The notes beneath the pieces are model-generated. The model saw only the letters and a program-made list of their open reading frames with translations. It was not told where the DNA came from and did not search any database. Shown piece by piece: positions 77 through 13,455 of a stretch of DNA of 13,537 bases; the stretch's first letter is position 1; each line of letters starts with the position of its first letter. The stretch is from the IMG/VR virus record IMGVR_UViG_3300012662_000073, positions 1 to 13,537 of that record. One strand, given 5' to 3'. Source of the stretch: a virus. Position numbers and translations under genes: made by a program.

Positions 77-988
77 CTACGCTATATCCTTTCCACCAAG
101 TACAATCTGATCAGAGAATGCATACTGAACACCAGCATTAGCCTCAATAACAAGTCGAAATTCCCTGTTGTCTTTGGAATAGAAGAAATCAAACACCTCT
201 TCATCATTTACGAGGTCGCAACCGAAGAAAAGATCCTGTGGACGAGCAGCAAAAATATAATCAGTTCCGTTAAGACCGTTAACAGCAACTACTCGTACGT
301 TGGTTCCAGGGAAATAAATCTCTTCATCAACTCCCTTGCCATCATAGTGGAAAAGATTCTTCTCCATAAGCTCGTTAGTGAACTTACGATATACATCAGC
401 ACCTACGAAGATAACTGCACCATCAAGAACCTTCTCCGGAATAGCCATATAAACAGCCTTGATAGCACCATATGCACCAGCAGTTACATCTGCATCCACT
501 TTATTGATATTTGCATCAGCCTTAGCAATCTTGAGAAGACCATCGAAAATCTTGAGATTAGCATCACCAGAAGCAGTATCACCCTGCCAAATAGCGGTCT
601 CGATCTTTGCTTTTACATCAGCGATAACAGCGTTAACGAAATCCTCTTCAAACGGAAGTGTCTTCTGTCCAGCTGCTACGCGAACTGCGTACTGCGTCCA
701 ATATTTAAGCATTGTTTTATCGCAGTAAGCCATATTTACTTTGAAATTACCAGTCTTAATCGTACGCTGCGAAAGAGTCTGTGAGCCCTTTTCGTCCCAA
801 CCACAAGCAAGTCCATCACCGAACTCTACATCAGTTGAAAGAAGATTAATAACTGCATCTGTTTTAATATCTGTCTGGAGATTGAACATCGAAGCACTCT
901 TTGCTCCAAGAACAGCCTCCTTAATAAGGGGAAGTCTACGCTCTTCTACATAAGCCGGAAGAGTTGTCATAACTGGTGAATTTGCCAT
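77..988 (-). CDS. Major capsid protein (HK97-fold type), 303 aa
   Basis: Intact ORF from ATG 988 to TAG 79..77. It sits directly after the protease and scaffold-like genes. By eye, length and sequence character are typical of HK97-like capsid proteins. It has three Trp codons, all TGG, and no TGA. Confidence 0.75.
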   Translation of the reverse strand: MANSPVMTTLPAYVEERRLPLIKEAVLGAKSASMFNLQTDIKTDAVINLLSTDVEFGDGLACGWDEKGSQTLSQRTIKTGNFKVNMAYCDKTMLKYWTQYAVRVAAGQKTLPFEEDFVNAVIADVKAKIETAIWQGDTASGDANLKIFDGLLKIAKADANINKVDADVTAGAYGAIKAVYMAIPEKVLDGAVIFVGADVYRKFTNELMEKNLFHYDGKGVDEEIYFPGTNVRVVAVNGLNGTDYIFAARPQDLFFGCDLVNDEEVFDFFYSKDNREFRLVIEANAGVQYAFSDQIVLGGKDIA

Positions 989-990
989 TT

Positions 991-1455
991 CTAAATATAT
1001 TTTTTACAATTTTTAAAAACTGCTCTCAAATCGTCTTTTGGAGCAATAACATCTTCTATTTCTTCTGTAGCTGGTTTAGCAACAGATTTATCTTCAATTG
1101 CATTTATACGCTCAGTAATTGCCTTTTCAAAAGCATCAATACGAGCATACAATTCATTTACCTCTTTACGAAGATTTTCTATATCCTCGGTTTCTTTTTC
1201 TGGAATAACCTCTTCAAGAGTCTCTTTCTCTTCTGGTTCAACAATCTTACCTTCCTTTACTTGGATTGGAGTTTCGTTAACAATATATTCACCATCTGGA
1301 ATATCTGCATATTCTCCATTCTCAGTAACGAGATATACTTCAGAACCAATTTCAAGACTCTCAAAAGCAATCTTTGTTCCGTCTTCAAGAACAACCTCAG
1401 TAAGGTCAGAAAGCATCTTTGCAAGAGCAATTCTTAAATCATTCAATTTACTCAT
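991..1455 (-). CDS. Scaffolding-like acidic coiled-coil protein, 154 aa
   Basis: Intact ORF ending in TAG 993..991, 2 nt before the capsid ATG. It is rich in E/K/I with a heptad-like central region (EEKETLEEVIPEKETEDIENLRKEVNELYARIDAFEKAI). Its position between protease and capsid is the classical scaffold slot. Confidence 0.5.
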   Translation of the reverse strand: MSKLNDLRIALAKMLSDLTEVVLEDGTKIAFESLEIGSEVYLVTENGEYADIPDGEYIVNETPIQVKEGKIVEPEEKETLEEVIPEKETEDIENLRKEVNELYARIDAFEKAITERINAIEDKSVAKPATEEIEDVIAPKDDLRAVFKNCKKYI

Positions 1456-1967
1456 TATCGAGTTGTTTTAATTTTGTTAAACAAATCATCTCTTTTTATC
1501 TCTGCTTCTATAGAGAAGCCAGAGTAGTTTTCATTTATTATTCTGTTATACAGATCTGGATTTTCAACCAAGTAAGTGATAAACAGAGTACCATCTGGTA
1601 GATCCTCAAATCCATTTAAGATATTGCGAGTAGAATCCTTGATATATACTTCTATTGGTTTAATTCCGGTAAGTAGTTGACCATTGTGCATAATCGAAAC
1701 ATTTTTTGTGTTTCCAGATGTAATTAAGTCACTAGCAAACCGTTTAATTGCTTCTTTACTAAAGACTAAGTAATATTCTCCGGATTCATCTCGTCTATAT
1801 ATCTTCATATCTGGAATAAGAATCGGTCCAGTTATTGATCTCTGATTGTTATCTGATTGAAATCGAATCTGTTTATTAAACAGAATAAAATCGCTTTCGA
1901 TTGCTGGTCTATCTACAAGAGATATACAATCTATGAAAGCATTGTTAACGTAATAAACAGGAATCAT
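1455..1967 (-). CDS. Prohead protease, XkdF-like (Peptidase_S78_2-type), 170 aa
   Basis: I prefer ATG 1967 (MIPVYY...), which lies 1 nt after the upstream TAA. The track's GTG start at 1985 would overlap the upstream gene. The pattern ISLVDRPAIESDF ... ITGPILIPDMKIYRRDESGEY ... SGFSIEAEI resembles the XkdF family as I remember it. The TAA stop overlaps the next ATG (TAATG). Confidence 0.6.
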   Translation of the reverse strand: MIPVYYVNNAFIDCISLVDRPAIESDFILFNKQIRFQSDNNQRSITGPILIPDMKIYRRDESGEYYLVFSKEAIKRFASDLITSGNTKNVSIMHNGQLLTGIKPIEVYIKDSTRNILNGFEDLPDGTLFITYLVENPDLYNRIINENYSGFSIEAEIKRDDLFNKIKTTR

Positions 1968-1968
1968 A

Positions 1969-2649
1969 TTAAAAATTATAAACACACTTTATCTTGTTCT
2001 GGGAATGCAATTTAAGTCTACCAGATAAGACAGAGTTATAAAACCTATACTGATATGGAGTAGGAACGTTCTCAGTAACCCAAGTAGCAAGACGGCCAAT
2101 CCTACCAGCCAGGTATGAGAGGGGTGTAATTACGGTTTTTCTACGAGTTTTATAAAAGCAATTCTTCATAAGCAATTGGATTTTCTTTAAGAACTTACGA
2201 AGGCGGTTTTTTCCAACTCCCACATATTCAGCAAGTTGCGCCCAACTCATTTTAATATCAAGAGTGTCGGAAAATGCAGCACATCTCGTTTTGAGAATAA
2301 TCCCCTTTTCAATGGAAGTGTAATTTGCCTTAAGAAAAGATCTGTTTACGAGATAATACGACTTGTAATTAAGTGAAATCACATAATGCTGTTTTCCCAT
2401 CTTACCGCGCCTGTAAGAGAGATTAATTAAACCAACTTTCGCAATTGCCTTTACTAGGTCGGATACTCTGTCCAAATCTTTTATTTTCAAACACTTAGCA
2501 AGATAAGCTCGGTTTACTTGCTGGTGATCTGTAATCATCTTTACGATATATAAATAAGTAGTTGCTTGTACATCAGTAAGCAATCTAACTCTATAATCGA
2601 TTCTGAAATAATTTTTCATAATCATTGTTATTTTAATAATCATTATCAT
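1969..2649 (-). CDS. Winged-helix DNA-binding protein, paralog A (replication-initiator-like or operon regulator)
   Basis: Intact ORF ending in TAA 1971..1969. Possible ATG starts are 2649, 2643, 2625 and 2619. Comparison with paralog B (MNKNYF...) favours 2619 or 2625 (M(IM)KNYF...). It shares the layout KNYF - wHTH - basic beta hairpin (GKQHYVISLNYKSYYLV vs GRKYVDYIIVKPKYYVV) - second HTH with the 12477..13169 product. There are no TGA codons. Confidence 0.55.
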   Translation of the reverse strand: MIMIIKITMIMKNYFRIDYRVRLLTDVQATTYLYIVKMITDHQQVNRAYLAKCLKIKDLDRVSDLVKAIAKVGLINLSYRRGKMGKQHYVISLNYKSYYLVNRSFLKANYTSIEKGIILKTRCAAFSDTLDIKMSWAQLAEYVGVGKNRLRKFLKKIQLLMKNCFYKTRRKTVITPLSYLAGRIGRLATWVTENVPTPYQYRFYNSVLSGRLKLHSQNKIKCVYNF

Positions 2650-2667
2650 TTTAATAGTTAATAGTCT

Positions 2668-2700
2668 AAGAAAACCTCCCAGACCGAATTATCCGGGAGG
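2668..2700 (-). terminator. Rho-independent terminator-like hairpin upstream of paralog A
   Basis: The minus strand reads CCTCCCGGATAATTCGGTCTGGGAGG followed by TTTTCTT. The stem is 6 perfect bp (2675..2680 / 2695..2700), extendable with G-U pairs. Confidence 0.5.
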
Positions 2701-2769
2701 ACCATTTCAAAATCGACTATCGAGAGAAAAACAAAACTCTCTCTATATATAATGTAAGGGGGTACACAC

Positions 2770-2789
2770 TTTTTGGGCATTTTTGGGCC
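2770..2789. repeat. Tandem 10-bp repeat TTTTTGGGC(N) x2 (minus strand GCCCAAAAA)
   Basis: The copies at 2770..2778 and 2780..2788 are identical. They are followed in the direction of transcription by TATATATA and a hairpin, mirroring the layout upstream of paralog B. Confidence 0.6.
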
Positions 2790-2800
2790 TAATTTTGAAT

Positions 2801-2875
2801 AATTTTTTTAATTTTTTTCGTAAGTGATTGATAATCATCGAGAAAAAATTTAAAATTTTTTTTAAAATTTTTTTT
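2801..2875. promoter_or_regulatory. AT-only phased T-tract block with a central inverted repeat (candidate DNA-unwinding or bent element)
   Basis: AATTTTTTT occurs x2 (2801..2818) and AAAATTTTTTTT x2 (2852..2875). These flank TTTTTTTCG-taagTGATTgatAATCAt-CGAGAAAAAA. Confidence 0.45.
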
Positions 2876-2986
2876 CGGAGACTCAACAATTCCTTTACCT
2901 GGCTTGTAGGATCATCCAAAATAAGACAATCAAAAGATTCTTTTTCGGAGCCAGCGGGAGAGTTTCTTTATAGTACATTGTAAATA

Positions 2987-3004
2987 TATGAAATATATTT
3001 CATA
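2987..3004. repeat. 18-bp perfect palindrome TATGAAATATATTTCATA
   Basis: Read directly from the sequence. It lies 27 nt downstream of the terminase stop. The stem is AT-only, so it is weak as a terminator. Confidence 0.6.
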
Positions 3005-3030: not shown

Positions 3031-4230
3031 TTAACCTATTCTGTATGTTCCGAGGTTTTTTTTGATTGCATAACAAGTAATTGCGAGTGACATACAAGCA
3101 TCATCTGGACAATTCTTTCCTGCGTATGTTATAAGATTTCCTTTATAAACGGCTTGAAATGCTTGTAGTTCTCTAATCAACTCTTTGTTGTTAATTATTT
3201 TTATTCGTTTTTGTTCAAAAAGTATTTGTAATCACTCTACAATATCTCTTTTACTCGAATTGGTTGTAGTTCATTCTGTTATCGGAATTGTAGTGTATTT
3301 CTTTAAGAGATCGATGTATGCCTTTCCCATCGAATTGCCTTCGCAAACTACTTTATTCGGTTTGTATTTATTAACGATCTCAGCAATTCATTTAACTCGT
3401 TCAACGGGCTCTAGCTGGTTGTTATATTGGAAATCAATCATTTCGTAATCTCTATTCATAACTGTTACAGCAGTATAATCTCCACCAACAGACGAACTAC
3501 AATCCACTCCTATTACTAGCCCGTTTTTGTGGGTAGGTTCTCCAACTGCATCTAGTATATTATTAAAAAGCAATCCTTGTCCTGCTGGAGCGAATTGTCC
3601 TAGTATTTCAGTCATATAACGCATTGGAGAATATTGTTCTTTTAAACGATCTAATTCTTCAGGCGAATAAACGAGATTCACATATTTCGATCAATCATAA
3701 ACAATTGTGTTTTTATTGTTATAAAGATCTCAAATATATCCCTCTGCCGTTAACGGGCTGGAAATATAAATAGTCAACGCTTTCTTCACCCTACGTAAAG
3801 GGAGTGCAGTCATAATAAAATCCGGGTCGAGAAAACAACATTCATCTAGCACAAGAAAGTTTTCCGCAGTTAATCCTCGTAAGGAGTCTTTTTGTTGTCC
3901 CGATCTAAAAAAGATTCTGGAACCATTTATGAAACATAATTCAAGTGTTTGGTAATTCACTTGCTTTATAAGGTTTGCTCCATTTAACATTTTAACAACA
4001 TCCTGCATTTGTGATCGAGATTGTTGTAACGTAGGTGCAATATAAACCCCATCTCCAATTAATTCAAGAGATGATTTAATCATCAAAAGAGCGATTGTAG
4101 AGCTTTTAAAAAATTGTCTCGGCGCAATTATGAGTATATCTTTATTTTGGTTTCGGAAACCCATCCGAGTAACATCAGACAGCAACTCTTTTTGCCAAAC
4201 TGTCAGATTGTTTGGAAGTACTATTTTCAT
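3031..4230 (-). CDS. terL: Terminase large subunit, 399 aa, with five in-frame TGA codons
   Basis: The gene runs from ATG 4230 to TAA 3033..3031. It has a Walker A-like motif IIAPRQFFKSST, Walker B LVLDE, coupling motif ISSP and nuclease-domain acidic motifs (VIGVDCSS..GGDYTAVTV; CPDDACMSLAI). Track fragments 3730..4230 and 3388..3681, plus the untracked 3031..3387, are in one frame. They are joined by TGA at 3730, 3691, 3388, 3271 and 3232. Confidence 0.8.
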
Positions 4231-4713: not shown

Positions 4714-5163
4714 ATTATTTCTGGCATAGTATTTGTATATATAATATTCGGATCGAGATACACCTCGATAGGATAGTGGGAAAGGGAAAGCCCTCCGATG
4801 TAGTAGAAACTAAAGTATAGCCTGCATTGAGCCTCAGTTGTGTTAATTGATTTTAAGATGAATTAATCTTAAATAGCACCTGCCAAAAAGACCATCACAT
4901 ATAACAAGGGAACTTGCAAAGTGTATTTCAGAGTGAAGCAAGTAGTGGTACTCAGCCACTCCTAAGTGAAGATAAACTCAGCGATCTTACTCGGTAGTCA
5001 TTCCAGAAGACAACGTTGAAGGGAACAAAATTCTTTGTAACGGGTTTATAACCGATTGATTTAATCGTTACTTGGTTTTGTTTTAAAAGACTTTCTCACT
5101 GCCCACCCCCTATATTAAGAGTGATTGGTAATCGAAACTTGCTTTAATAACAAAAGCGAGTAA
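4714..5163. ncRNA. Candidate structured noncoding RNA or long cis-regulatory leader (class not recognised)
   Basis: TAA/TAG stops are dense in all six frames even when TGA is read as sense. Local G/C-rich patches are unusual for this genome (GGGAAAGGGAAAGCCCTCC 4778..4796; GCCCACCCCC 5101..5110). There are several local helices: 4752..4757/4764..4769, 4852..4859/4866..4873, 4912..4917/4938..4943, 4944..4948/4956..4960 and 5053..5057/5063..5067. I could not fold a tRNA. Confidence 0.25.
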
Positions 5164-5196
5164 GGGGAAACTATTCCCTATATGAAACGTTTCCCC
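5146..5196 (-). terminator. Terminator-like hairpin after the tape-measure-like gene
   Basis: The minus strand reads GGGGAAAC-(17 nt)-GTTTCCCC with 8 perfect bp (5164..5171 / 5189..5196), starting 10 nt after the TAG. The following tract TTACTCGCTTTTGTTATT is only moderately T-rich. Confidence 0.4.
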
Positions 5197-5206
5197 ATAG
5201 ACTACT

Positions 5207-8095
5207 CTAGAAAGTTGCATTATCGTTAACTACTTTTACTCGGTTTTGAGCATCAGTAATATCTCTTTCAGTAACATAAACTTTAATTGGTTTGTTAACT
5301 TCATCTATCTCTTTATCTCCGAGTAAGTTACGAGTATATTCTATATTCGGTTGAGTAACAGCAGGCGGAGTAACAGTAGATGCAGATACACTACTTGATG
5401 AACTGAATTGCGTTCTTTGAATTTGTACAACATTTGCAATACCAGCCGCAATTGCAGCAGCAGCCGCAGCAGCACCTAAAAACGGTCCAACATACGGTAT
5501 TGATGCCATTGATTGATAAGAACTATTCGCAGCAGCATAAGTATCCATAATTGCTTGTGTAGTTGCAGCTACCTTATAAGTAGTAAATGCTTTTTTACGT
5601 TGTTCTTCACTCAGTTTTTCGTTTTGTGATTCAGTTTGTGCTATACTAGCCAGACTACTCATTACATTGCTTGCTACACTAAGAGTTGATTGTAATGCTA
5701 GTCGTTTCTTTGCTTGTACAGCATCATATGCTTTTGCGTTATCTTGTTCGTTTTTAATTGCTGCATCACTAAGAGCTATTTCATTCTCTTTAAGAGTACG
5801 CTCTATCTCCAGACGTTGATCAGCAGTTAATTGACTATTCGATAATTGTTCCGTTAAAAGTTTGTTTTCGGCATCTATACGCTGCTTTGTAAGAGCATAA
5901 AGATCATTGTTATACTTGATTGTGTCTGCATATTGTTTTTGGACATCCTCTTTTGATTGATATGTAAATACTTCATTACGATCGAATCCTGCTCCAAATG
6001 CTCTACTAAACTTTTGTCCGTATCTAGTGTTATATGCTTGCTCTTGTGGTTGTCTCAGATTGCTTGTATCACTCAGTTGTCTTATTCGAGCTAGTTCTTC
6101 CTTAAATTGATCATATCTGCTCTTTTGATTCTCTTTTTCATCTTGCTTGTTCTTATCCAGATATTTATTCAATATCTCGTTCTTCTTAACAAGATATATT
6201 TCATCGATTCGAGTACTATCTACACCATATCGTTCAGCCAGAGAAAGCATCTCTTGATACTGTTCATCTAATGCGTTAATTGCATTCTCTTTCTCAGTAT
6301 AAAAGAGTTTTTCAGATTCTTTTAAAAAGCTATTCAGTGCTTCGAGATCTTTATCAATCTCAGTTTTCGTAGTACTACCAGATCCCTCTTTGTCTTTACT
6401 AGCCCAGAAAGGTTTGTATTTCTTTCGGAGTTCCTCTGTTTTGTTCGTTATGTTACTAACAAACTCTGTATATGATTCCTCGTTCTCTTTAAGTGCTTTA
6501 TCTACTTGTGCTTTATTCGCTACTCGTATTGTCTCTACGCTTGTTCCAGTAGCGTATTGTGCTGCATTTTGTAATGCTTTTTGGAGATCTTCTGCACCCT
6601 GTCTTTCGATTTCTAATTGATTGTTGATATACTCAGTAGTCTTCTCAGAAATCTTCTGTCTATATGCATCTATTTGTGCTCTTGCTATAATTGCATTTTT
6701 ATAATCCTCTGTATTATTAACAAAAGCATCTTCAGCATCTTTAACGTCATTTATCTTTAATCCAGTTTTCTCGATTTGTTCGGAGTACTCTTTTAAAAAC
6801 TCCTTTTTATCACCAAACTGATTGTAAACGTTCAAGAGTTCATTAAACGCAGCAAGACTATCTCCAGCTAATTCAGATGTAGTTTTATTAATTGCTTTGT
6901 TAAATTCCTGTTGTGCTTTACTTGCTTTGTAAGTAGCAGCAATTCATTCAAACAATTTAAAAACTGCTGCTGTTATCACTGTTATTAAGGCTGTCCAACC
7001 CACTGTTGAAATTACACTCTTTGTAGCAGACCAAGCTTTACCAAGTTTTGATTGTGCAAACTCAGCCTTTTGTAAGGCAGATTCATATTGCTGTAATTCC
7101 TTTACTTGGCCCGCTTCTTGGTATTGTAAGTCTTTTAAGACTTCTTTTAGCCCTGTGGTTCCGTTCGCGTACTTTTGTTGTACTTGTATTGCTTTATTGT
7201 AGTCCAATCCCATTCCTTGGAGAGCCGCTTTTGCATTTATTCTCGCATCAACAAGAGATTGTCCGTACTGCTCTTGTAATTCCTTTACTTGGTCGTAGTA
7301 TATCGACAATGTCCTATCTGATTCTGAGACTTCTTGGATCTGTTGTTTTACAACTTCAATCGACTTCTGTGTATTAGCAATTAAGTTCTTTTGTCGGCTA
7401 ATTACCTTTGTTTGGTTTGTAATATATTTATCCCACTGTTCATTAACCGGTACAATCGTTTTTTGTTGCTGTTGTAATGCTTGTGTAGTCTGTGCAATTT
7501 CTTTTGATCCACCAGAAACACTTGTAGATATGTTCACATCTCCTATTCCAGCAAGATCTTTAATCGGTTGTATATCCAAGCTATTTAAGGCTTGCGCAGA
7601 TTCTGTTATTCGTCTATTAAACGGACTCAGATTCTCAAACAAGTCGAGTACGCCATCTTTTAAACGATCGAATCATCCTTTTATTGTTGGTAAACTATTT
7701 GCAAGTCCTTCCAATCCACCAATTCCTTGTACAACTGCAATTCCTCCTTGGAGTTTTACAAGCACCTTACTAAGATCATCACCACTCTTACCAAGTAAGG
7801 CAAGTAGTCCATTTAATGCACCGAATCCACCTGCCAATCCAGATCCGATTCGAGAAAGATTCGCTAATTGATCAGCCAGCTTTTGGGTATTCTGCTGGCT
7901 AATCTTATTAACGTTATTTAATTGTGCTTCGTATTGATTTAATCTCTCTATTGTTTTTGTATATTCAGCACTAGTCTTATCTAGGCTTGCTAAATAATCT
8001 TTTAAAGAGTTAATCTCTTTTTTAAGCTGTCTAACGTTTGTAACCGCTTTACCGGTTTGTACGTCAACTATTTTGGTAATTACTGTTTCTGCCAT
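5207..8095 (-). CDS. Tape-measure-like or internal ejection-like protein, 962 aa, with two in-frame TGA codons
   Basis: The gene runs from ATG 8095 to TAG 5209..5207. Track fragments 7673..8095, 6944..7642 and 5207..6835 share one frame and are joined by TGA at 7673 and 6944. The TTG 'starts' of the two downstream fragments are internal Leu codons. The protein has long Q/E/K-rich coiled-coil stretches plus Gly/Ala-rich hydrophobic segments (GSGLAGGFGALNGLLALLG; VGPFLGAAAAAAAIAAGIANVV), as in tape-measure proteins. Confidence 0.6.
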
Positions 8096-11000
8096 TATAA
8101 ACTAATTGTTATATCATCTGTTCCAGCAGTTATCTGGAAACGTCTAATTACTGTTCCTCGTCTATTTATCAACTGTATTTCAAATGCTTCATTTCTCGGT
8201 CCGTATATCAATCAAGATTTATTAAAATCATCAAACGAGTAAGTGTATCTATCATCCTCACTAACTACACTCATTCACATTGTATCAAGAGTAAGTAAGT
8301 TTTCAATCACTTTTATATTTCTTGCTTTACTTGGGTTCGGGAGCGTCTCCATTCTAAACGATTGTGTGTATTTATATAACCTGCTAGTAAACGTCCAATA
8401 TGCTACTTCACTATGTCAAGTATCATTTATGCTTGTTTGTGCAGTAATCTCTGTAGTACCAGCATCTCCACTAGTTATATCTGGTTCAAGATATTGTGAA
8501 TCACTTTCTACCGTTCAACTATCAGCAGCAAGGAGAGTCCCTTCATATTGTCCACTATCATATCTGGTTGTTAACGGACTCAGAGTAAATCCATATGTAT
8601 AATCTGGTTGTCCATTTGTATATGCATTTATATCATTTACTCGTATAAACTCAAATTGTTGTGGTTCTTTACTTTCCGGAGAGTAATCGTTTGCCTTATT
8701 TAAGATATAAACTGTATTATCAATCAAATAAAACGAGTTCAAATCAATTTCATCAAGTAATGCTCAACAAGTAAGCTTTCTTGTGTTCTCGTTAAAGAGA
8801 TCATTATAATATTCTTTATTAAACCTGTTATAAATGCATTTATCGTCTGTGTATTCAACTCCTGGTATAAATCATTCTTTTGGTCATCCTAAATCAAGAC
8901 TATCTGTTACTTGGTTGTCATTAATCAAATAACTAGAGTAACTCGGTATTTTATCAAGCTTGTATGCAATTCGTTCACCAGCCTTGTTATATTCGCTTGT
9001 AGTGTACAAAAAGCATCTTTCTTCATTCAGATCAAACATTTCTTGTGTATCATCAGATAACCAGTATATCTGTGGAGTATCGAAATATCCGTTATAAAAG
9101 ACTAAGCTTGCTTTAAAATCACTAGTGGACTTACTTTTATCAAAGAAACAAGGCTTGTAATTGCTATCCTGTCCAGCGAGTATTCCTCAATCACTAATCT
9201 TATTTATATATTCCGAACCATATAAAGTCTGTGTTGTGGAGTCATCTTTTGTCTTAAAAAGAGTTCATTCACAATTATCAACCAAGAAACAAGGTTGTTC
9301 AGTAGATCCCTTAAAATAACTTCGATAATATTTACTGGAGTCTCTTGCCGTTATTGCTTGTTGGAAAACATTATCACTCAGTAATTCATTTATATCACTG
9401 TTAAATTCATATCCAGTGTCAATTCGTTGTTGTCCGTATTCTATATTATATCTATTCTTATATTTGCTTGCGTAATATGTTTCCGGAGTCTCCAGTTTCA
9501 TTAAATATCATTTCTTATCAAATAACAAGGGTTCAATCGTAATCTCTTTCGAGTAGTCTATTTTGCCTGTTATATCAATAATATTTCTTTTAAAGAAACT
9601 ATTTCTCGATTTTATGTTAATCTCATTATTAACTCGATCTATCTCAAAATATAATCCAAAGAGTTTCGCATAACTAATCAAATAATCAGCAGCAGAGTCT
9701 TCTGTAGTAAGCAATTTCTTTTTGGTAATCAATGTGTTTGTTCCAACCGTATAATCAGACTTGATTGTTATCGAGCTTGTTTGTGCAGTAAAGTTCATTT
9801 CACCAGCATATCCAGAACCAATCTCAATTTCATCTTTTGTAGGATAAAGTTTTGTAACCCTTTCACTATAAAAAACGGAGTACCAACTTGCTTTCACAAC
9901 AATTTTAACACTGTCAGCAGGTTTCACCAAATCAGTAATTGTAAGATGTATCGTTTTATCAAATTTAAAAGTATCTCCAGACTTTATAAAAGCACCATCC
10001 ATTAAAGTACTGTTTGCATCTGTTTCAGGAGTATATCCCATTCAGTTATTCGGTTGTGGTGTCTTGCTGTCACTCAGTCTGTTTGTAATATTATAAATAT
10101 TCGAGTAGCCAACAATTTTATTATTATCATCAAGTAACTGTACTTGTAATGCAATTGAACCACCAGCAGTACTAACTATATTACCTCTTTCAAAAGTAGC
10201 AGCCATATAAAGAGTATTATCCGAGATTTCATCATCTGGTTGGAAATTAATGTCAATCGGTATATCAATATCAATTGTACTATCATTCGAGTAACCAGAT
10301 AAATCAATTGTCTCAGAACCATCCTTTTTAAAAGGAAATGTGTTATCCGGTAGAGAACTATTTATATTTCCGAGATCACTTGTTATTTCGCTTGTAGATT
10401 CATTTCCAGATTCACTTTCTTGATCAGCACCAAGTAACGGTAGAGTAATATAAGATTGTTCCCAATAAGGATTTTTTGGACTAAATCAGCTTGGATCGAG
10501 ATTCACTTGATATCCTGTATTGTCTTTATTTAAAATCGCCTTAAAAAGCTCTTTAAGCCTCAATGCAGGTCTTTGTTTGTAAGATCGTAAATCTCGTATT
10601 TCCCATTCCGTATAAGATTCATTCAGTTTGGCTAATCCATATCCGTTATATAATTTATATTCTCCATTCACACTAGGGAAACTAGTTCCAGATTGATTCA
10701 CTAAACAAGAACTTGTATCAAACTCTTCATATAATCCGTTATATGCAGGTATAAACTTTAATAAACTATGTAAACCATCTTCAGATCCATTAAAAGAGTC
10801 ATAAACCCATTCTTTATTTATGCTAAACCTAAAATAAGTATCATCATCACTTGTATAAGTAATATCAGCAAGTGTTCTTGTGGAGCCATCTTCTTTATAT
10901 CTAAGATTGTAAAAGAAATCACCAAGCAAACCATATAAGTTAATATTATATGCTCGCTTGGTAATGCTAGTCAGTTGCATATATCCTCTTTCAAATAAAC

Positions 11001-11250
11001 AACCGTTTCTAAGTATAACGAAATCAACTCTCTTTCTTGGATTGAAAGTCTGTTCTGTTTGTTGTCTATCTAATCTGTATATATCATCAAAAATCTTGTT
11101 GTTGTTATCTGTTCTCGGTATTTCTATGCTAACCGAGTAAGGATTCTTTATTGCTGTTGGATTGTATATCTCCAATTGGCTATAAGTCATTCCGAGAGAT
11201 ATATCATCATTCAGATCAACTTTCTTGTTATTTATATATAATTCTACCAT
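8095..11250 (-). CDS. Large tail/baseplate protein (host-recognition candidate), 1051 aa, with twelve in-frame TGA codons
   Basis: The gene runs from ATG 11250 to TAA 8097..8095, which overlaps the next ATG as TAATG. Hand translation shows a single open frame through TGA at 10486, 10042, 9508, 9265, 9187, 8884, 8872, 8764, 8515, 8416, 8275 and 8212. This joins track fragments 10486..11250, 9508..10041, 9265..9501 and 8515..8742 with the untracked stretches between them. The composition is beta-rich (N/Y/T/S/D), typical of fibre and baseplate proteins. Confidence 0.6.
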
Positions 11251-12068
11251 CGAAATTGTGTTCTAGCGGATTTCAAAGTAAGTTCAAGCCTACTAAATCT
11301 CTTTTTAAAATCATAACTAGTTGTATCAATTAAAACTGGCTCAATAATGTTTTTATCTAGACTGTGTAAGTAAACTTTTGGACTATTTAACAAGTGATGT
11401 ATATTCTCCTTGTTAATTGTATAACCAGTAACAACGTCATAACTGTTTGTAAACTCAGTTAAGTACCTCCTTGTAAGAGTATCATCCAAGTAATCATAAT
11501 TCGTTTTGTTCTCAGATTTATTTGCTTTCACAAGTAAACTATCTCAACCACCAAACTCGTTCAAGTAATATATTGCGTAATCACCACAACTCATTTTGTA
11601 TTTAAACTCTTGAAACGTACTAGTAAACGAAATATTTCCAGTAGTCTTTTGTGAATAAACGTTTGCTTCATTACTAGCAGGTAACGCAGTACCATTTATT
11701 TTCGGATTCACATCTTTCAAGTAAGAGAAAATCAAATATTGTCTTGCATCATATAAATCATCAATCGGAGCAGAAATATATGTTGCATCACTATCTGTAT
11801 ATTCTTGATTGTTTGTTATATAATCATCTATTCCAGTTGATGTTTCAAAATATCTTTTCCAGTTAACTAAGCCTTGTGTTTGTTTCGGGAGATCTCCAGA
11901 GTCTATATATTTCTTTATAAGATCGTTTATTTTAACGCTTATCTTACCGGTGTTTGGATTTCTCCAAGCTTTTCCAGTAAAAACTGTTTCATCATCTATT
12001 TTAATTCAGTAGTCTGTGTATTCTTTATTAACTACTTGTTCATCTATTATTGGATAACCTATATTCAT
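11244..12068 (-). CDS. Tail-associated structural protein, 274 aa, with two in-frame TGA codons
   Basis: The gene runs from ATG 12068 to TAG 11246..11244, overlapping the next ATG by 7 nt (ATGGTAG). The TGA codons are at 12006 (..TDY-TGA-IKIDD..) and 11544 (..YYLNEFGG-TGA-DSLLV..). It joins track fragments 11544..11735 and 11244..11531. Confidence 0.55.
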
Positions 12069-12484
12069 ATCGAGTCTATCAATTTATTTGTTTGTATATC
12101 TATTTCTTTATCAAGGTTCGGTTCTATTATATCTAACGACCTTTCTAAGATGTGTTTGCCAGGTATGCCTTTCTTAGCAATGCTCTTTGCAATTGCTCAA
12201 CTAAGATTTCTTTCTAAGGGCAAGTGTTTGTTTTTTATCCAATTCTCTATAAGAGCAATCGGAGGTTGTTTTCCAGGTAATCGACCATTCTCTATATATT
12301 CGTAATAATCAGCAATTGATAATCAAACCGATCAATTATCCGATTGCTCTTGTGTAGTAACACTAAGACTGTTTGAAAGATTTCCAGTTGTGTTAATATT
12401 CTCTTTATTTAACAATTCTCTGTAAGAGTTTATAAATTCTTCTCCAGAGTGTTCTAAAACTGTATCTAAATCAAGTCTATTCAT
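12059..12484 (-). CDS. Hypothetical virion or assembly protein, 141 aa, with four in-frame TGA codons
   Basis: The gene runs from ATG 12484, overlapping the upstream wHTH stop by 8 nt (ATGAATAG), to TAG 12061..12059. The TGA codons are at 12332, 12323, 12197 and 12065. It is invisible in the standard-code track because the first TGA comes after 50 codons. The product reads MNRLDLDTVLEHSGEEFINSYRELL...ADYYEYIENGRLPGKQPPIALIENWIKNKHLPL... Confidence 0.5.
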
Positions 12485-13169
12485 CCTTTTGTTTTTTTAA
12501 TAATCCGGAAATCATTTTGTCATATATCTCGTTTGCTTTCGGGATAATATAAAGTTGATTTTCATAAAACCAACTTGCTTGTTTATAAAGCTTGCTAGTA
12601 GGATCACCCGTAGTAAGGATCATATTCAATTCATTCATTCTATTATCCGAAAGATGCGTTGTAGCGAAAATTGGGAAATACTCTCCAGATAAAGCATAGC
12701 CGTCATCAACCACTGTTATAATGCCCGATTCAATTAAACGCTTCTTGTAAGAGAAATAGGCAGTTCTTCCTATTTGGAGATGCTTTATAATATCGTTATC
12801 CGAGTACTTTATTTGGTTTGTTCCATTAATTCTTAATTCGGCTAGTTTAATTGCCAATACTCCCAATTCTTTGTATTGTAGGATAGCGTTCATACAAACT
12901 ACATAATACTTCGGTTTGACAATTATATAGTCCACATATTTTCTTCCGTTTACAAAGCGGTACTCCTTTCTTATATAGCCATCTTTTTGAAATTGATTTG
13001 TCATTCTAGTAACGACATCTGCTTTCTTTATTCCGGTAAGTTCCATTATCTTTCCTCGGCTTATGTGGCTGACTTTTGAGTCGCTATTCATCATAATTAG
13101 CGCAAGCACATAATCCTCTTTTAAGAGGTAACATCTCTTGGTTGGCATTACAAAATAATTTTTATTCAT
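12477..13169 (-). CDS. Winged-helix DNA-binding protein, paralog B (replication-initiator-like or operon regulator), 230 aa
   Basis: Intact ORF from ATG 13169 to TAG 12479..12477. The N-terminal pattern KNYFVMPTKRCYLLKEDYVLALIMM..ISRGKIMELTGIKKADVVTRMTNQFQKDGYI resembles RepA_N / DnaD-type wHTH initiators from memory. It has a second HTH-like segment (DIIKHLQIGRTAYFSYKKRLIESGII), no TGA and one TGG. Confidence 0.6.
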   Translation of the reverse strand: MNKNYFVMPTKRCYLLKEDYVLALIMMNSDSKVSHISRGKIMELTGIKKADVVTRMTNQFQKDGYIRKEYRFVNGRKYVDYIIVKPKYYVVCMNAILQYKELGVLAIKLAELRINGTNQIKYSDNDIIKHLQIGRTAYFSYKKRLIESGIITVVDDGYALSGEYFPIFATTHLSDNRMNELNMILTTGDPTSKLYKQASWFYENQLYIIPKANEIYDKMISGLLKKQKDE

Positions 13170-13183
13170 AAAATTTCATTGAT

Positions 13184-13198
13184 GGAAACTCGGTTTCC
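13184..13198. promoter_or_regulatory. Inverted repeat GGAAAC-TCG-GTTTCC, 15 nt upstream of the paralog B start (operator or RNA hairpin candidate)
   Basis: Perfect 6-bp arms read directly from the sequence. The same half-site recurs at 13363..13386 and 5164..5196. Confidence 0.4.
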
Positions 13199-13201
13199 TA
13201 T

Positions 13202-13230
13202 TATAGATAGTTTATATATAGATAGTTTAT
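13202..13230. repeat. Tandem direct repeat TATAGATAGTTTAT x2 (period 15 bp)
   Basis: The copies at 13202..13215 and 13217..13230 are identical. A TATAAT hexamer on the minus strand (13202..13207) lies at the downstream edge. Confidence 0.6.
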
Positions 13231-13234
13231 TGAT

Positions 13235-13276
13235 ACCCCTTTTTCGGTACCACCCTAACCCCTTTTTCGGTACCAC
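13235..13276. repeat. 19-bp direct repeat ACCCCTTTTTCGGTACCAC x2 (period 23 bp), iteron- or operator-like
   Basis: The copies at 13235..13253 and 13258..13276 are identical. They lie between a terminator and the wHTH paralog B gene. Confidence 0.65.
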
Positions 13277-13289
13277 TTGTGTAGGTTAT

Positions 13290-13320
13290 TAAAAAACAGC
13301 GAGTTAGCTAGACCCGCTGT
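13290..13320 (-). terminator. Rho-independent terminator
   Basis: The minus strand reads ACAGCGGGTCTAGCTAACTCGCTGT followed by TTTTT. The stem is 6 perfect bp (13296..13301 / 13315..13320), extendable to about 10 bp with one G-U pair. Confidence 0.6.
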
Positions 13321-13322
13321 TC

Positions 13323-13340
13323 CAATGAAATTCAATGAAA
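13323..13340. repeat. Tandem CAATGAAA x2 (period 10 bp)
   Basis: The copies are at 13323..13330 and 13333..13340. An inverted copy (ATTTCATTG) sits at 13173..13181 next to the paralog B start. Confidence 0.4.
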
Positions 13341-13362
13341 ACTATCTAATCTTTTATTTAAC

Positions 13363-13386: not shown

Positions 13387-13455
13387 TATTATTATATCTA
13401 TTCTATATACAATAACTATGCCAAACTAGTTTTTCGGAATATTGGCAGTTATTTT

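What the first reader, a model, noticed from the sequence alone, without database searches (positions are those of the whole stretch)
12477..13320. Two paralogous winged-helix genes each head a structural operon and sit behind the same terminator-repeat-TATATA-hairpin architecture
The 12477..13169 and 1969..2649 products share the N-terminal KNYF motif, a wHTH, a basic hairpin (RKYVDYIIVKPKYYVV vs KQHYVISLNYKSYYLV) and a second HTH. Each is translationally coupled to the first structural gene of an operon. Paralog B overlaps the 141-aa gene by 8 nt and leads into the tail genes. Paralog A ends 1 nt before the prohead protease. In the direction of transcription each upstream region contains four elements in the same order.
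- A strong terminator: 13290..13320 for B. For A the 2668..2700 hairpin sits closer to the start.
- A tandem pair of G/C-containing repeats ending in A5: GGTACCGAAAAAGGGGT x2 at 13235..13276 for B, and GCCCAAAAA x2 at 2770..2789 for A.
- A TATATA-rich element.
- A short perfect hairpin: 13184..13198 for B and 2722..2743 for A.
Initiator-like wHTH proteins are normally found in replication modules, not as the first cistron of tail and head operons. A duplicated, operon-specific DNA-binding protein with its own divergent repeats suggests autoregulated cassettes, dual origins, or DNA-recognition subunits for packaging.
Basis: partly seen in the sequence, partly recalled or inferred. Interest (0 to 1): 0.7.

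Follow-up and report, generated by a model that had tools for sequence, protein, structure and literature searches.

The report
Phage operon-head winged-helix control cassettes
The two genes are real but very distant copies of an unnamed double winged-helix DNA-binding protein. The ~27 kb phage carries four copies, and most sit behind a terminator, repeats and promoter-like module that recurs in unrelated phages. This most likely makes each one a self-contained, self-regulated control cassette at the head of a gene block.

Summary
A (2649..1969) and B (13169..12477) are not similar by pairwise BLASTP (E=18). They are homologous by profile comparison (hhalign 99.7%, E 5e-27, 227 columns) and through a bridging protein, P0024. 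AlphaFold2 gives both the same layout: WH1 with a long beta-hairpin, then WH2, then a small helical C-terminal domain.

The window is half of a ~26.8 kb phage genome that reads TGA as Trp. That genome has four paralogs, not two; B2 and B3 lie outside the window.

B's upstream module recurs in nine or more loci whose proteins are 27-57% identical, including 98-160 kb crAss-like contigs. It consists of an inverted 10-mer, a terminator, two 19-mers 23 bp apart, two A/T-rich 12-15-mers carrying TATAAT, and a hairpin. It evolves more slowly than synonymous sites.

A's upstream region is only loosely similar and its elements are in a different order.

Paralog number and position vary between close relatives. 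One relative fuses a B3 copy to a GIY-YIG nuclease domain.

Best reading: modular, autoregulated operon-head DNA-binding cassettes. A Rep/iteron origin role is not excluded, especially for B. A packaging role has no support. The family is uncharacterised and the mechanism is inferred, not shown.

The parts
12477..13169 (-). Paralog B: 230-aa tandem winged-helix protein (WH1 16-93, WH2 94-165, C-terminal three-helix domain 175-220).
   Evidence: ORF. AF2 pLDDT 91.5. Homologues P0001-P0013.
13184..13198 (-). Short hairpin or palindrome GGAAAC-CGA-GTTTCC, starting 2 nt after the TATAAT. Probably a 5' stem-loop of the mRNA.
   Evidence: -5.8 kcal/mol, z -4.4. An equivalent hairpin with a different sequence and loop size is present in L008, L009, L010, L013, L016 and B3.
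13202..13231 (-). 'Site II': two 15-nt A/T-rich direct repeats (ATAAACTATCTATAT / ATAAACTATCTATAA). The second carries TATAAT (13205..13200). Probable core promoter and/or protein-binding site.
   Evidence: family D2. The 12-mer pair is significant in all B-type loci at spacing 13-16. ATAAACTATCTA is identical in L008 and L009.
13235..13276 (-). 'Site I': two identical 19-mers GTGGTACCGAAAAAGGGGT, 23 bp start to start. Candidate operator or iteron.
   Evidence: 17/17 matches with 0 of 100 shuffles reaching that. The pair is kept at 23-24 bp spacing, with divergent sequence, in 9 loci.
13289..13321 (-). Intrinsic-terminator-like hairpin followed by U6. It would end transcription coming from the upstream gene block.
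   Evidence: -14.9 kcal/mol, z -4.6. A terminator sits at the same place in L008, L009, L010, L012, L013, L016 and B3.
13339..13348 (-). Inverted copy (TAGATAGTTT) of the site II core, 110 nt upstream of the direct copies. It marks the 5' edge of the conserved non-coding block.
   Evidence: I1. The same inverted copy is present in L008 and L009. Conservation against L022 begins here.
13430..13437 (-). Extra CCGAAAAA copy just after the stop of the upstream gene.
12059..12484 (-). 141-aa gene (four TGA=Trp codons) overlapping B by 8 nt. Weak match to tail-completion/Neck1 proteins.
   Evidence: phrog_5, E 1.5e-3.
1969..2649 (-). Paralog A: divergent tandem winged-helix protein. The likely true start is ATG 2619 (216 aa, MKNYF).
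   Evidence: ORF. Orthologues start MKMYF or MYF. AF2 pLDDT 80.6.
2620..2655 (-). Two 18-nt A/T-rich direct repeats (ATTAAAATGATAATGATT / ATTAAAATAACAATGATT) between the leader hairpin and ATG 2619. Possible counterpart of site II.
   Evidence: D2. The segment is partly conserved in L014 and L015.
2675..2700 (-). Strong hairpin followed by UUUUCUU. Terminator-like element directly upstream of A.
   Evidence: -17.6 kcal/mol. The stem is kept through different sequences in L014 and L015.
2722..2743 (-). Hairpin GAGAGAG-N9-TCTCTC immediately after the promoter-like motif.
   Evidence: z -3.1. L015 has AGAGAGG-TT-TCTCTCT.
2741..2765 (-). GTACCCCC plus the promoter-like 15-mer ACATTATATATAGAG.
   Evidence: The 15-mer occurs exactly twice in the genome. 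In relative L022 it lies 3 nt before the ATG of the 196-aa gene. GT(T)ACCCC plus TATATAGAG is kept in L014 and L015.
2770..2789 (-). GCCCAAAAA x2, period 10.
   Evidence: D5. Kept in L015, absent in L014.
2871..2948 (-). Two CTCCGAAAAA copies 70 nt apart. The CCGAAAAA motif is shared only with B's upstream region.
   Evidence: D3; 5 copies against 0.49 expected.
1455..1967 (-). XkdF-type prohead protease gene starting 1 nt after A's stop. Scaffold (1455..991) and capsid (988..77) genes follow.

Best explanation
A and B belong to a small, unnamed family of phage proteins built from two winged-helix DNA-binding domains and a short helical C-terminal domain. Each gene comes as a self-contained control cassette.

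**Proposed mechanism for the B-type cassette**
- A terminator stops transcription arriving from the upstream block.
- A promoter-like A/T-rich repeat pair (site II, carrying TATAAT but no -35 element) restarts transcription.
- Two 19-bp repeats 23-24 bp apart (site I) and an inverted site II copy about 110 bp upstream serve as binding sites for the cassette's own protein.
- The protein therefore sets, most likely by autoregulation, the transcription of itself and of the genes joined to it. For B these are the neck and tail genes. For A they are the protease, scaffold and capsid genes.
- The short hairpin is most likely a 5' stem-loop of the mRNA.

Different paralogs carry different site I sequences. 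This would give each gene block its own regulator. The cassettes are modular and move between phages.

**Shown**
- Homology of A and B.
- The predicted fold.
- The cis-architecture and its conservation.
- Presence/absence polymorphism between relatives.

**Inferred**
- That the proteins bind these repeats.
- The sign of regulation.
- The positions of the promoters.
For: - Homology and fold.
- The module (terminator, 2x17-19-mer at 23-24 bp, 2x12-mer, hairpin, ATG) is significant in winB, B3, L008, L009, L010, L012, L013 and L016, and borderline in B2. The proteins at these loci are 27-57% identical and sit in 25, 55, 98 and 160 kb phage backbones.
- Site I sequence differs between paralogs and is unique to its own cassette in the genome.
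- The non-coding block from the inverted 10-mer to the ATG is about 92% identical to L022. Third codon positions of B are 78% identical, and the DNA further upstream cannot be aligned.
- No -35 or TAnnTTTG element lies upstream of A, B or B2, so an activator or a special factor is plausible.
- Tight junctions to downstream genes.
- Family members hit transcription-factor wHTH families: HTH_Crp_2 in 12 of 31, also MarR, TrmB and Lrs14.
- CCGAAAAA links the A and B control regions.
Against: - No binding, transcription start or expression data exist.
- The nearest phage families are replication initiators, not regulators.
- Site I resembles iterons beside an A/T-rich stretch.
- No other replication gene is recognisable in the genome.
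- A's control region lacks sites I and II, so the model is weaker for A.
- Tight coupling to the downstream gene is not universal: there is a 263-nt gap in L016.
Confidence: 0.5

Rival explanations
1. These are Rep/iteron-type replication modules. The tandem-WH protein acts as an initiator, like lambda O or plasmid RepA/pi. It binds the 19-bp repeats, melts the adjacent A/T-rich site II region, and also represses its own promoter. At least B, the copy conserved between relatives, would be the phage's initiator.
For: - WH1-WH2 layout.
- PHROG hits to phrog_270 replication initiation (8 of 31 members, best 2.6e-10), phrog_186 DnaD-like loader (7 of 31) and O-like families. Pfam Phage_rep_O in 3 members and RepL in 1.
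- BFVD structural hit to a 'Replication initiator protein', 1.9e-5.
- 19-bp units at about two helical turns, next to an A/T-rich stretch.
- No other replication protein was found in the 26.8 kb genome.
- B and its module are the conserved copy in L022/L023.
Against: - Only two repeats.
- Four copies in 27 kb, including accessory ones that close relatives lack.
- In the 160 kb crAss-like contig the cassette lies between tail-fibre-like genes upstream (my reading of their sequences) and, about 9 kb downstream, CrAss_Ring genes. The genes in between gave no informative match.
- No helicase-loader or DnaD C-terminal domain.
- No curated Rep family is reached.
- No DnaA-box excess and no GC-skew inflection at either locus. 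Skew is weak evidence here because all genes lie on one strand.
Confidence: 0.22
2. The cassettes are selfish, mobile units related to the DNA-binding modules of free-standing homing endonucleases. They persist because they insert at gene-block junctions, not because the phage needs them as regulators.
For: - Presence/absence and position polymorphism. L022/L023 lack B2. L009 has no A-type gene before the protease. B2 together with a small HTH ORF looks like a 1.2 kb insertion between a promoter and the 195-aa gene.
- A B3 orthologue is fused to a GIY-YIG domain at a different junction in L023.
- Mosaic proteins P0010 and P0011.
- The same cassette occurs in unrelated phage backbones.
Against: - The window copies have no nuclease domain.
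- The non-coding module is under purifying selection.
- Tight junctions to essential genes suggest an integrated function.
- This reading is compatible with the best explanation rather than exclusive of it.
Confidence: 0.15
3. The proteins are DNA-recognition subunits for packaging, acting like small terminases that recognise the repeats as pac or cos sites.
For: - No small terminase was identified in the window.
- A lies next to the large terminase gene.
Against: - No similarity to any TerS family in sequence or fold.
- Four paralogs, each with different sites.
- B, B2 and B3 are not near the terminase gene.
- In relatives the cassette sits at other junctions.
Confidence: 0.03

Closest known systems
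Iteron-binding initiators with two winged-helix domains (plasmid RepA/RepE/pi; phage lambda O with its 19-bp ori repeats and A/T-rich region). From established knowledge.
   Same: - Tandem WH1-WH2 protein.
- The gene lies next to direct repeats of about 19 bp at about two helical turns, followed by an A/T-rich stretch.
- Such initiators also repress their own promoters.
- The nearest PHROG families are of this kind.
   Different: - Two repeats rather than four or more.
- Four copies per 27 kb genome.
- Located at heads of structural gene blocks.
- No curated Rep family threshold is reached.
- No partner-recruiting domain is recognisable.
Late-gene regulators encoded directly upstream of the packaging and structural operon in Gram-positive phages (RinA, LtrC, ArpU). 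From established knowledge.
   Same: A phage DNA-binding regulator positioned at the entry to the morphogenesis genes, next to a promoter that lacks a good -35 element.
   Different: - No sequence or fold relation.
- Those regulator genes lie upstream of the promoter they activate.
- Here the gene lies downstream of the presumed control region, inside the operon, and is present in several diverged copies.
MarR / Lrs14 / Crp-type winged-helix autoregulators.
   Same: Winged-helix DNA-binding domains. Repeats overlap the gene's own promoter region.
   Different: - A single chain with two different WH domains instead of a MarR-type dimer.
- All matches are below the family cut-offs for A and B themselves.
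- The repeats are direct, not a simple palindrome.
Free-standing GIY-YIG homing endonuclease genes and phage 'morons'. I-TevI is also an autorepressor of its own promoter. From established knowledge.
   Same: - Self-contained units inserted between conserved genes.
- Variable between close relatives.
- One relative fuses this DNA-binding module to a GIY-YIG domain.
   Different: - No nuclease domain in the four copies of this genome.
- The terminator is upstream, not downstream, of the gene.
- The gene is joined to the following essential gene.

Membership tests
Iteron-type Rep / lambda O-like replication initiators | Two consecutive winged-helix domains | tested here: met
   AF2 models of B (pLDDT 91.5) and A (80.6) show WH1 and WH2. 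Foldseek returns only generic tandem-WH matches, none with E<1e-3.
Iteron-type Rep / lambda O-like replication initiators | Sequence membership in a curated Rep family (Pfam/NCBIfam cut-off) | tested here: not met
   A and B reach no Pfam or NCBIfam cut-off. Only some relatives give sub-threshold Phage_rep_O or RepL hits. PHROG matches cover the wHTH part only.
Iteron-type Rep / lambda O-like replication initiators | Array of at least 3-4 iterons beside an A/T-rich unwinding element, one module per replicon | tested here: not met
   There are two repeats per cassette in all loci and four cassettes in one 26.7 kb genome. An adjacent A/T-rich stretch is present.
Iteron-type Rep / lambda O-like replication initiators | Initiates replication at the repeats | not testable with these tools
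   There is no DnaA-box excess and no skew inflection, but neither result is decisive.
DnaD-like helicase loader / replisome organiser | N-terminal winged helix plus C-terminal DnaD/DnaB_2 domain | tested here: not met
   phrog_186 matches residues 84-157 only (1.5e-6). The C-terminal domains of five members give no Pfam match.
MarR-type autoregulators | One wHTH per chain with N- and C-terminal dimerisation helices; family cut-off reached | tested here: not met
   MarR_2 E 0.25 for B and phrog_1687 E 4.6e-3 for A. The models show two WH domains per chain.
Autoregulated transcription-factor cassette (functional class) | Conserved, protein-specific repeats overlapping or adjoining the gene's own promoter | tested here: met
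   For B-type loci. For A this is met only loosely.
Autoregulated transcription-factor cassette (functional class) | The protein binds those repeats and changes transcription | not testable with these tools
   Needs EMSA or footprinting and transcript mapping.
RinA/LtrC/ArpU late regulators | Sequence or fold similarity to these families | tested here: not met
   No such family appears among the Pfam, PHROG or NCBIfam hits.
Small terminase | TerS family match or TerS-like oligomerisation fold | tested here: not met
   None found.
Mobile free-standing cassette (HEG- or moron-like) | Presence/absence and positional polymorphism between close relatives | tested here: met
Mobile free-standing cassette (HEG- or moron-like) | Nuclease domain in the gene | tested here: not met
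   Absent in A, B, B2 and B3. Present only as a GIY-YIG fusion in L023.

The most novel reading that the evidence does not exclude
The cassettes are horizontally mobile 'operon-capture' modules. On inserting between a promoter and essential morphogenesis genes, the cassette's terminator cuts off the resident promoter. Its own promoter and DNA-binding protein then take over expression of the downstream genes. This both gives block-specific control and makes the cassette hard to lose. The same module spreads between small phages and 100-160 kb crAss-like phages that share TGA=Trp coding.
Probability: 0.15. Interest if true: 0.75.

Novelty: new variant of a known kind. Interest (0 to 1): 0.5.

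Why it matters
If the reading is right, it defines a compact, portable unit of gene control in uncultivated phages that read TGA as Trp. The unit is one protein plus about 200 bp of DNA. It gives testable protein and DNA-site pairs and natural specificity variants, with four in one genome. It also offers a way to mark operon boundaries in phage genomes that have no recognisable promoters. If B instead proves to be the initiator, the finding would locate the replication origin of a phage group in which no replication genes are recognisable.

Tried and rejected
- Pairwise BLASTP of A against B was not significant. Homology was resolved only with profiles and a bridging sequence.
- Megablast of the whole window, and tblastn of B and of P0024, against 50,697 GenBank phage records found nothing.
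- Rfam over the window gave nothing credible.
- Foldseek against PDB returned only generic winged-helix matches, none with E<1e-3.
The B-family alignment gave only 4 viral loci.
- An exact search for the site II pair in GTDB genomes gave two unrelated hits with no family gene nearby, so no host was identified. The same search in IMG/VR gave none.
- DnaA boxes occur at chance level.
- The Bacteroidota-type TAnnTTTG motif is absent upstream of A, B and B2 in this genome, although it is present upstream of the terminator in several relatives.
- PHROG scans of neighbouring genes in this genome and in L008 were uninformative.
- I considered that the wHTH genes avoid TGA because they are expressed before a code switch. 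I rejected this: B2 and other early-region genes use TGA.
- Synteny between L008 and this phage, suggested by similar gene sizes, is not real.
- Literature searches found no description of this family.
Full report
**1. Context**

All genes in the window lie on the minus strand. With the standard code many are broken. With TGA read as Trp they become long ORFs:
- B (13169..12477)
- a 141-aa gene
- 274-aa and 1051-aa tail-like proteins
- a 962-aa tape-measure-like protein
- DUF5675
- large terminase (4230..3031)
- A (2649..1969)
- XkdF-type protease, scaffold and capsid genes

TGA=Trp is shown directly. A TGA codon in the window's terminase gene aligns with TGG in relative L014, and a TGG in the window aligns with TGA there.

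The window matches about half of a ~26.8 kb contig recovered at nearly the same length from several metagenomes. Loci L001 and L002 together close the circle. No tRNA gene is present. No gene has a Shine-Dalgarno sequence.

**2. The observation**

The B side:
- Terminator hairpin plus U6: -14.9 kcal/mol, z -4.6.
- Two identical 19-mers 23 bp apart, against 0.01 expected.
- A 15-nt direct repeat pair that contains TATAAT.
- A 6-bp hairpin, z -4.4.

The A side:
- Hairpin 2675-2700: -17.6 kcal/mol.
- GCCCAAAAA x2.
- A TATATA element.
- Hairpin 2722-2743.

The 8-nt overlap and the 1-nt gap to the downstream genes are correct.

The order of elements is not the same on the two sides. In A the strong hairpin lies between the TATATA element and the start codon. 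It is followed by two 18-nt A/T-rich direct repeats (2620-2655) that run up to ATG 2619. That ATG is the start orthologues support (MKNYF against MKMYF).

**3. Paralogy and fold**

BLASTP of A against B is not significant. Three lines of evidence nevertheless show homology over the whole length:
- An exhaustive HMMER search with A found 24 representatives. Several carry B's C-terminal domain.
- One of them, P0024, matches A at 6e-13 and B at 8e-32 over 211 residues.
- hhalign of the enlarged A family against the B family gives 99.7% probability, E 4.9e-27, over 227 columns.

AF2 predicts the same layout for both proteins:
- a short N-terminal strand (the KNYF motif);
- WH2;
- a C-terminal three-helix domain.

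No solved structure matches beyond generic tandem winged helices such as RPC34, SelB, DnaD and TFIIIC.

Neither A nor B reaches a curated Pfam or NCBIfam cut-off. Across the family the hits are:
- generic wHTH regulator families (HTH_Crp_2, HTH_36, MarR, TrmB, Lrs14);
- among phage families, replication-initiator and DnaD-like groups, for the wHTH part only.

The C-terminal domain has no known relative. No database source gives any member a name.

**4. Four paralogs, not two**

Outside the window the same genome encodes B2 (239 aa) and B3 (240 aa, opposite strand). Both are plainly related to B. A family HMM finds exactly four full-length members in the composite genome.

Copy number and position vary between relatives:
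- L022/L023 (B 92% identical) keeps B at the same place and lacks B2.
- L022/L023 also carries a B3 orthologue fused to a GIY-YIG domain, at the junction between the tape-measure and DUF5675 genes.
- L009 has a B-type gene, then a 640-aa gene, then the protease, with no A-type gene.
- In L016 the bridging type sits before the protease.
- In L012 the family gene is followed by genes with no match to the phage's structural genes, with sigma-like genes about 2.3 kb further on.
- P0010 and P0011 are mosaics of a B3-like N-terminus and B's C-terminal domain.

**5. The cis-module**

B's upstream architecture recurs at B2 and B3. It also recurs upstream of homologues in a 6 kb contig (L009), a 55 kb contig (L010), a 26.6 kb contig (L012), a 24.9 kb contig (L016) and 160 kb crAss-like contigs (L008, L013). 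L008 is also TGA-recoded.

A scan of 12 loci found the following:
- A 17-mer pair at 23-24 bp spacing was significant in 8 loci (0 of 100 shuffles) and borderline in B2.
- It was absent in the three A-type loci.
- The 12-mer pair at 13-16 bp spacing showed the same split.

Site I sequence differs between cassettes. B and B2 are alike (GTACC-A5-7-GGGG). B3 is TTGTTCG-N3-AACCTGG. Each site I is unique to its own cassette in the genome.

Site II keeps a common form, ATAAA-N-(T/C)AT-N-TA. It is identical in the window, L008 and L009.

An inverted copy of the site II core lies about 110 bp upstream in the window, L008 and L009.

Against L022, the block from that inverted copy to the ATG is about 92% identical. 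Third codon positions of B are 78% identical, and the DNA further upstream cannot be aligned. The non-coding module is therefore under selection.

The short hairpin keeps its pairing but not its sequence or loop size (3 to 11 nt). This fits an RNA stem-loop better than a protein operator (inference).

**6. The A side**

A's orthologues keep these features:
- GT(T)ACCCC plus the promoter-like TATATAGAG;
- the following hairpin, in L015;
- the strong leader hairpin, with different stem sequences;
- the A/T-rich segment before the start.

The GCCCAAAAA pair is kept in L015 but not in L014.

The 15-mer ACATTATATATAGAG occurs at only one other place in the genome, upstream of the B2 region. In L022 it lies 3 nt before the start of the orthologue of the gene that follows B2. 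Two conclusions follow:
- It behaves as a promoter of the phage backbone.
- B2, and by analogy A, look like insertions between such a promoter and its genes (inference).

CCGAAAAA occurs five times in the window against 0.49 expected. All copies are on the coding strand and all lie in the two upstream regions. This hints at cross-talk between them. However, the A-run inside B's 19-mers is not strictly conserved in L022.

**7. Interpretation**

The best-supported reading is a modular, autoregulated operon-head cassette. Its parts would work as follows:
- The terminator insulates the cassette from upstream transcription.
- Site II provides a promoter that has a TATAAT but no -35 or TAnnTTTG element.
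- Site I and the distal inverted site provide binding sites for the cassette's own tandem-WH protein.

Binding and the sign of regulation are inferred, not shown.

The main rival is a Rep/iteron module, possibly for B only.
- For: the domain layout, the nearest phage families, the spacing of the repeats, and the absence of any other recognisable replication gene.
- Against: only two repeats, four variable copies, placement among apparent structural genes in large phages, and no Rep-family membership.

The two readings are not exclusive, because initiators commonly repress their own promoters.

A selfish-mobile-cassette reading is supported by the polymorphism and the nuclease fusion. It is compatible with either function.

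A packaging role has no support.

**8. Novelty**

Winged-helix autoregulators and Rep/iteron modules are both well known. What is new here:
- an unnamed, rare family: 24-26 clusters in collections of billions of proteins;
- a stereotyped 200-bp control module that travels with the family between unrelated phage backbones;
- its expansion to four diverged copies that head separate gene blocks in one 27 kb genome.

Noticed in passing
whole window, e.g. 3031-4230, 8095-11250, 12059-12484: TGA is read as Trp throughout the phage. TGA and TGG interchange at aligned Trp positions with relative L014. The ~26.8 kb genome carries no tRNA gene. A 160 kb crAss-like contig (L008) that carries a B homologue is also TGA-recoded.
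   Followed up: partly
L001 7301-8020 (+) and L001 2431-3153 (-), outside the window: Two further clear paralogs of B (B2 and B3) in the same genome. Each has its own terminator, repeat pair, A/T-rich repeat pair and hairpin module.
   Followed up: yes
window 4764-5206: A 443-nt non-coding stretch between the tape-measure-like gene and the DUF5675 gene, with no Rfam match. It is 70-74% similar, in inverted orientation, to a non-coding gap between two other genes in relative L023 (3286-3662). It may be a mobile non-coding element.
   Followed up: partly
L023 12766-13860: In a close relative, the junction between the tape-measure and DUF5675 genes holds a 364-aa ORF that joins a GIY-YIG nuclease-like N-terminus to a B3-type tandem winged-helix protein.
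   Followed up: partly
window 2741-2755 and L001 about 6792-6806: The 15-mer ACATTATATATAGAG occurs exactly twice in the genome. In relative L022 it lies 3 nt before a start codon, so it is probably a backbone promoter giving a near-leaderless mRNA.
   Followed up: partly
window 2871-2878, 2941-2948, 13240-13247, 13263-13270, 13430-13437: CCGAAAAA occurs five times against 0.49 expected. All copies are on the minus strand and all lie in the regions upstream of A and B.
   Followed up: partly
window 2620-2655: Two 18-nt direct repeats overlap the annotated 5' end of A. The real start is probably ATG 2619.
   Followed up: partly
window 2987-3004: An 18-nt perfect palindrome, TATGAAATATATTTCATA, lies just after the terminase stop codon. 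A near-identical block is present in L014.
   Followed up: no
proteins P0010 and P0011 (other contigs): Mosaic family members with a B3-like N-terminal part and B's C-terminal domain. This indicates recombination between paralogs.
   Followed up: no
L023 13877-15295: The DUF5675 protein of a relative is 472 aa rather than 176 aa. It contains a 'CLDGDTEILT' segment that looks like an intein insertion.
   Followed up: no
L008, L010, L012, L013 and L016, upstream of the cassette terminators: A Bacteroidota-type TAnnTTTG promoter motif lies 35-95 nt before the cassette terminator in several relatives. This suggests a short terminated leader or a small RNA. The motif is absent at this position in the window.
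   Followed up: no
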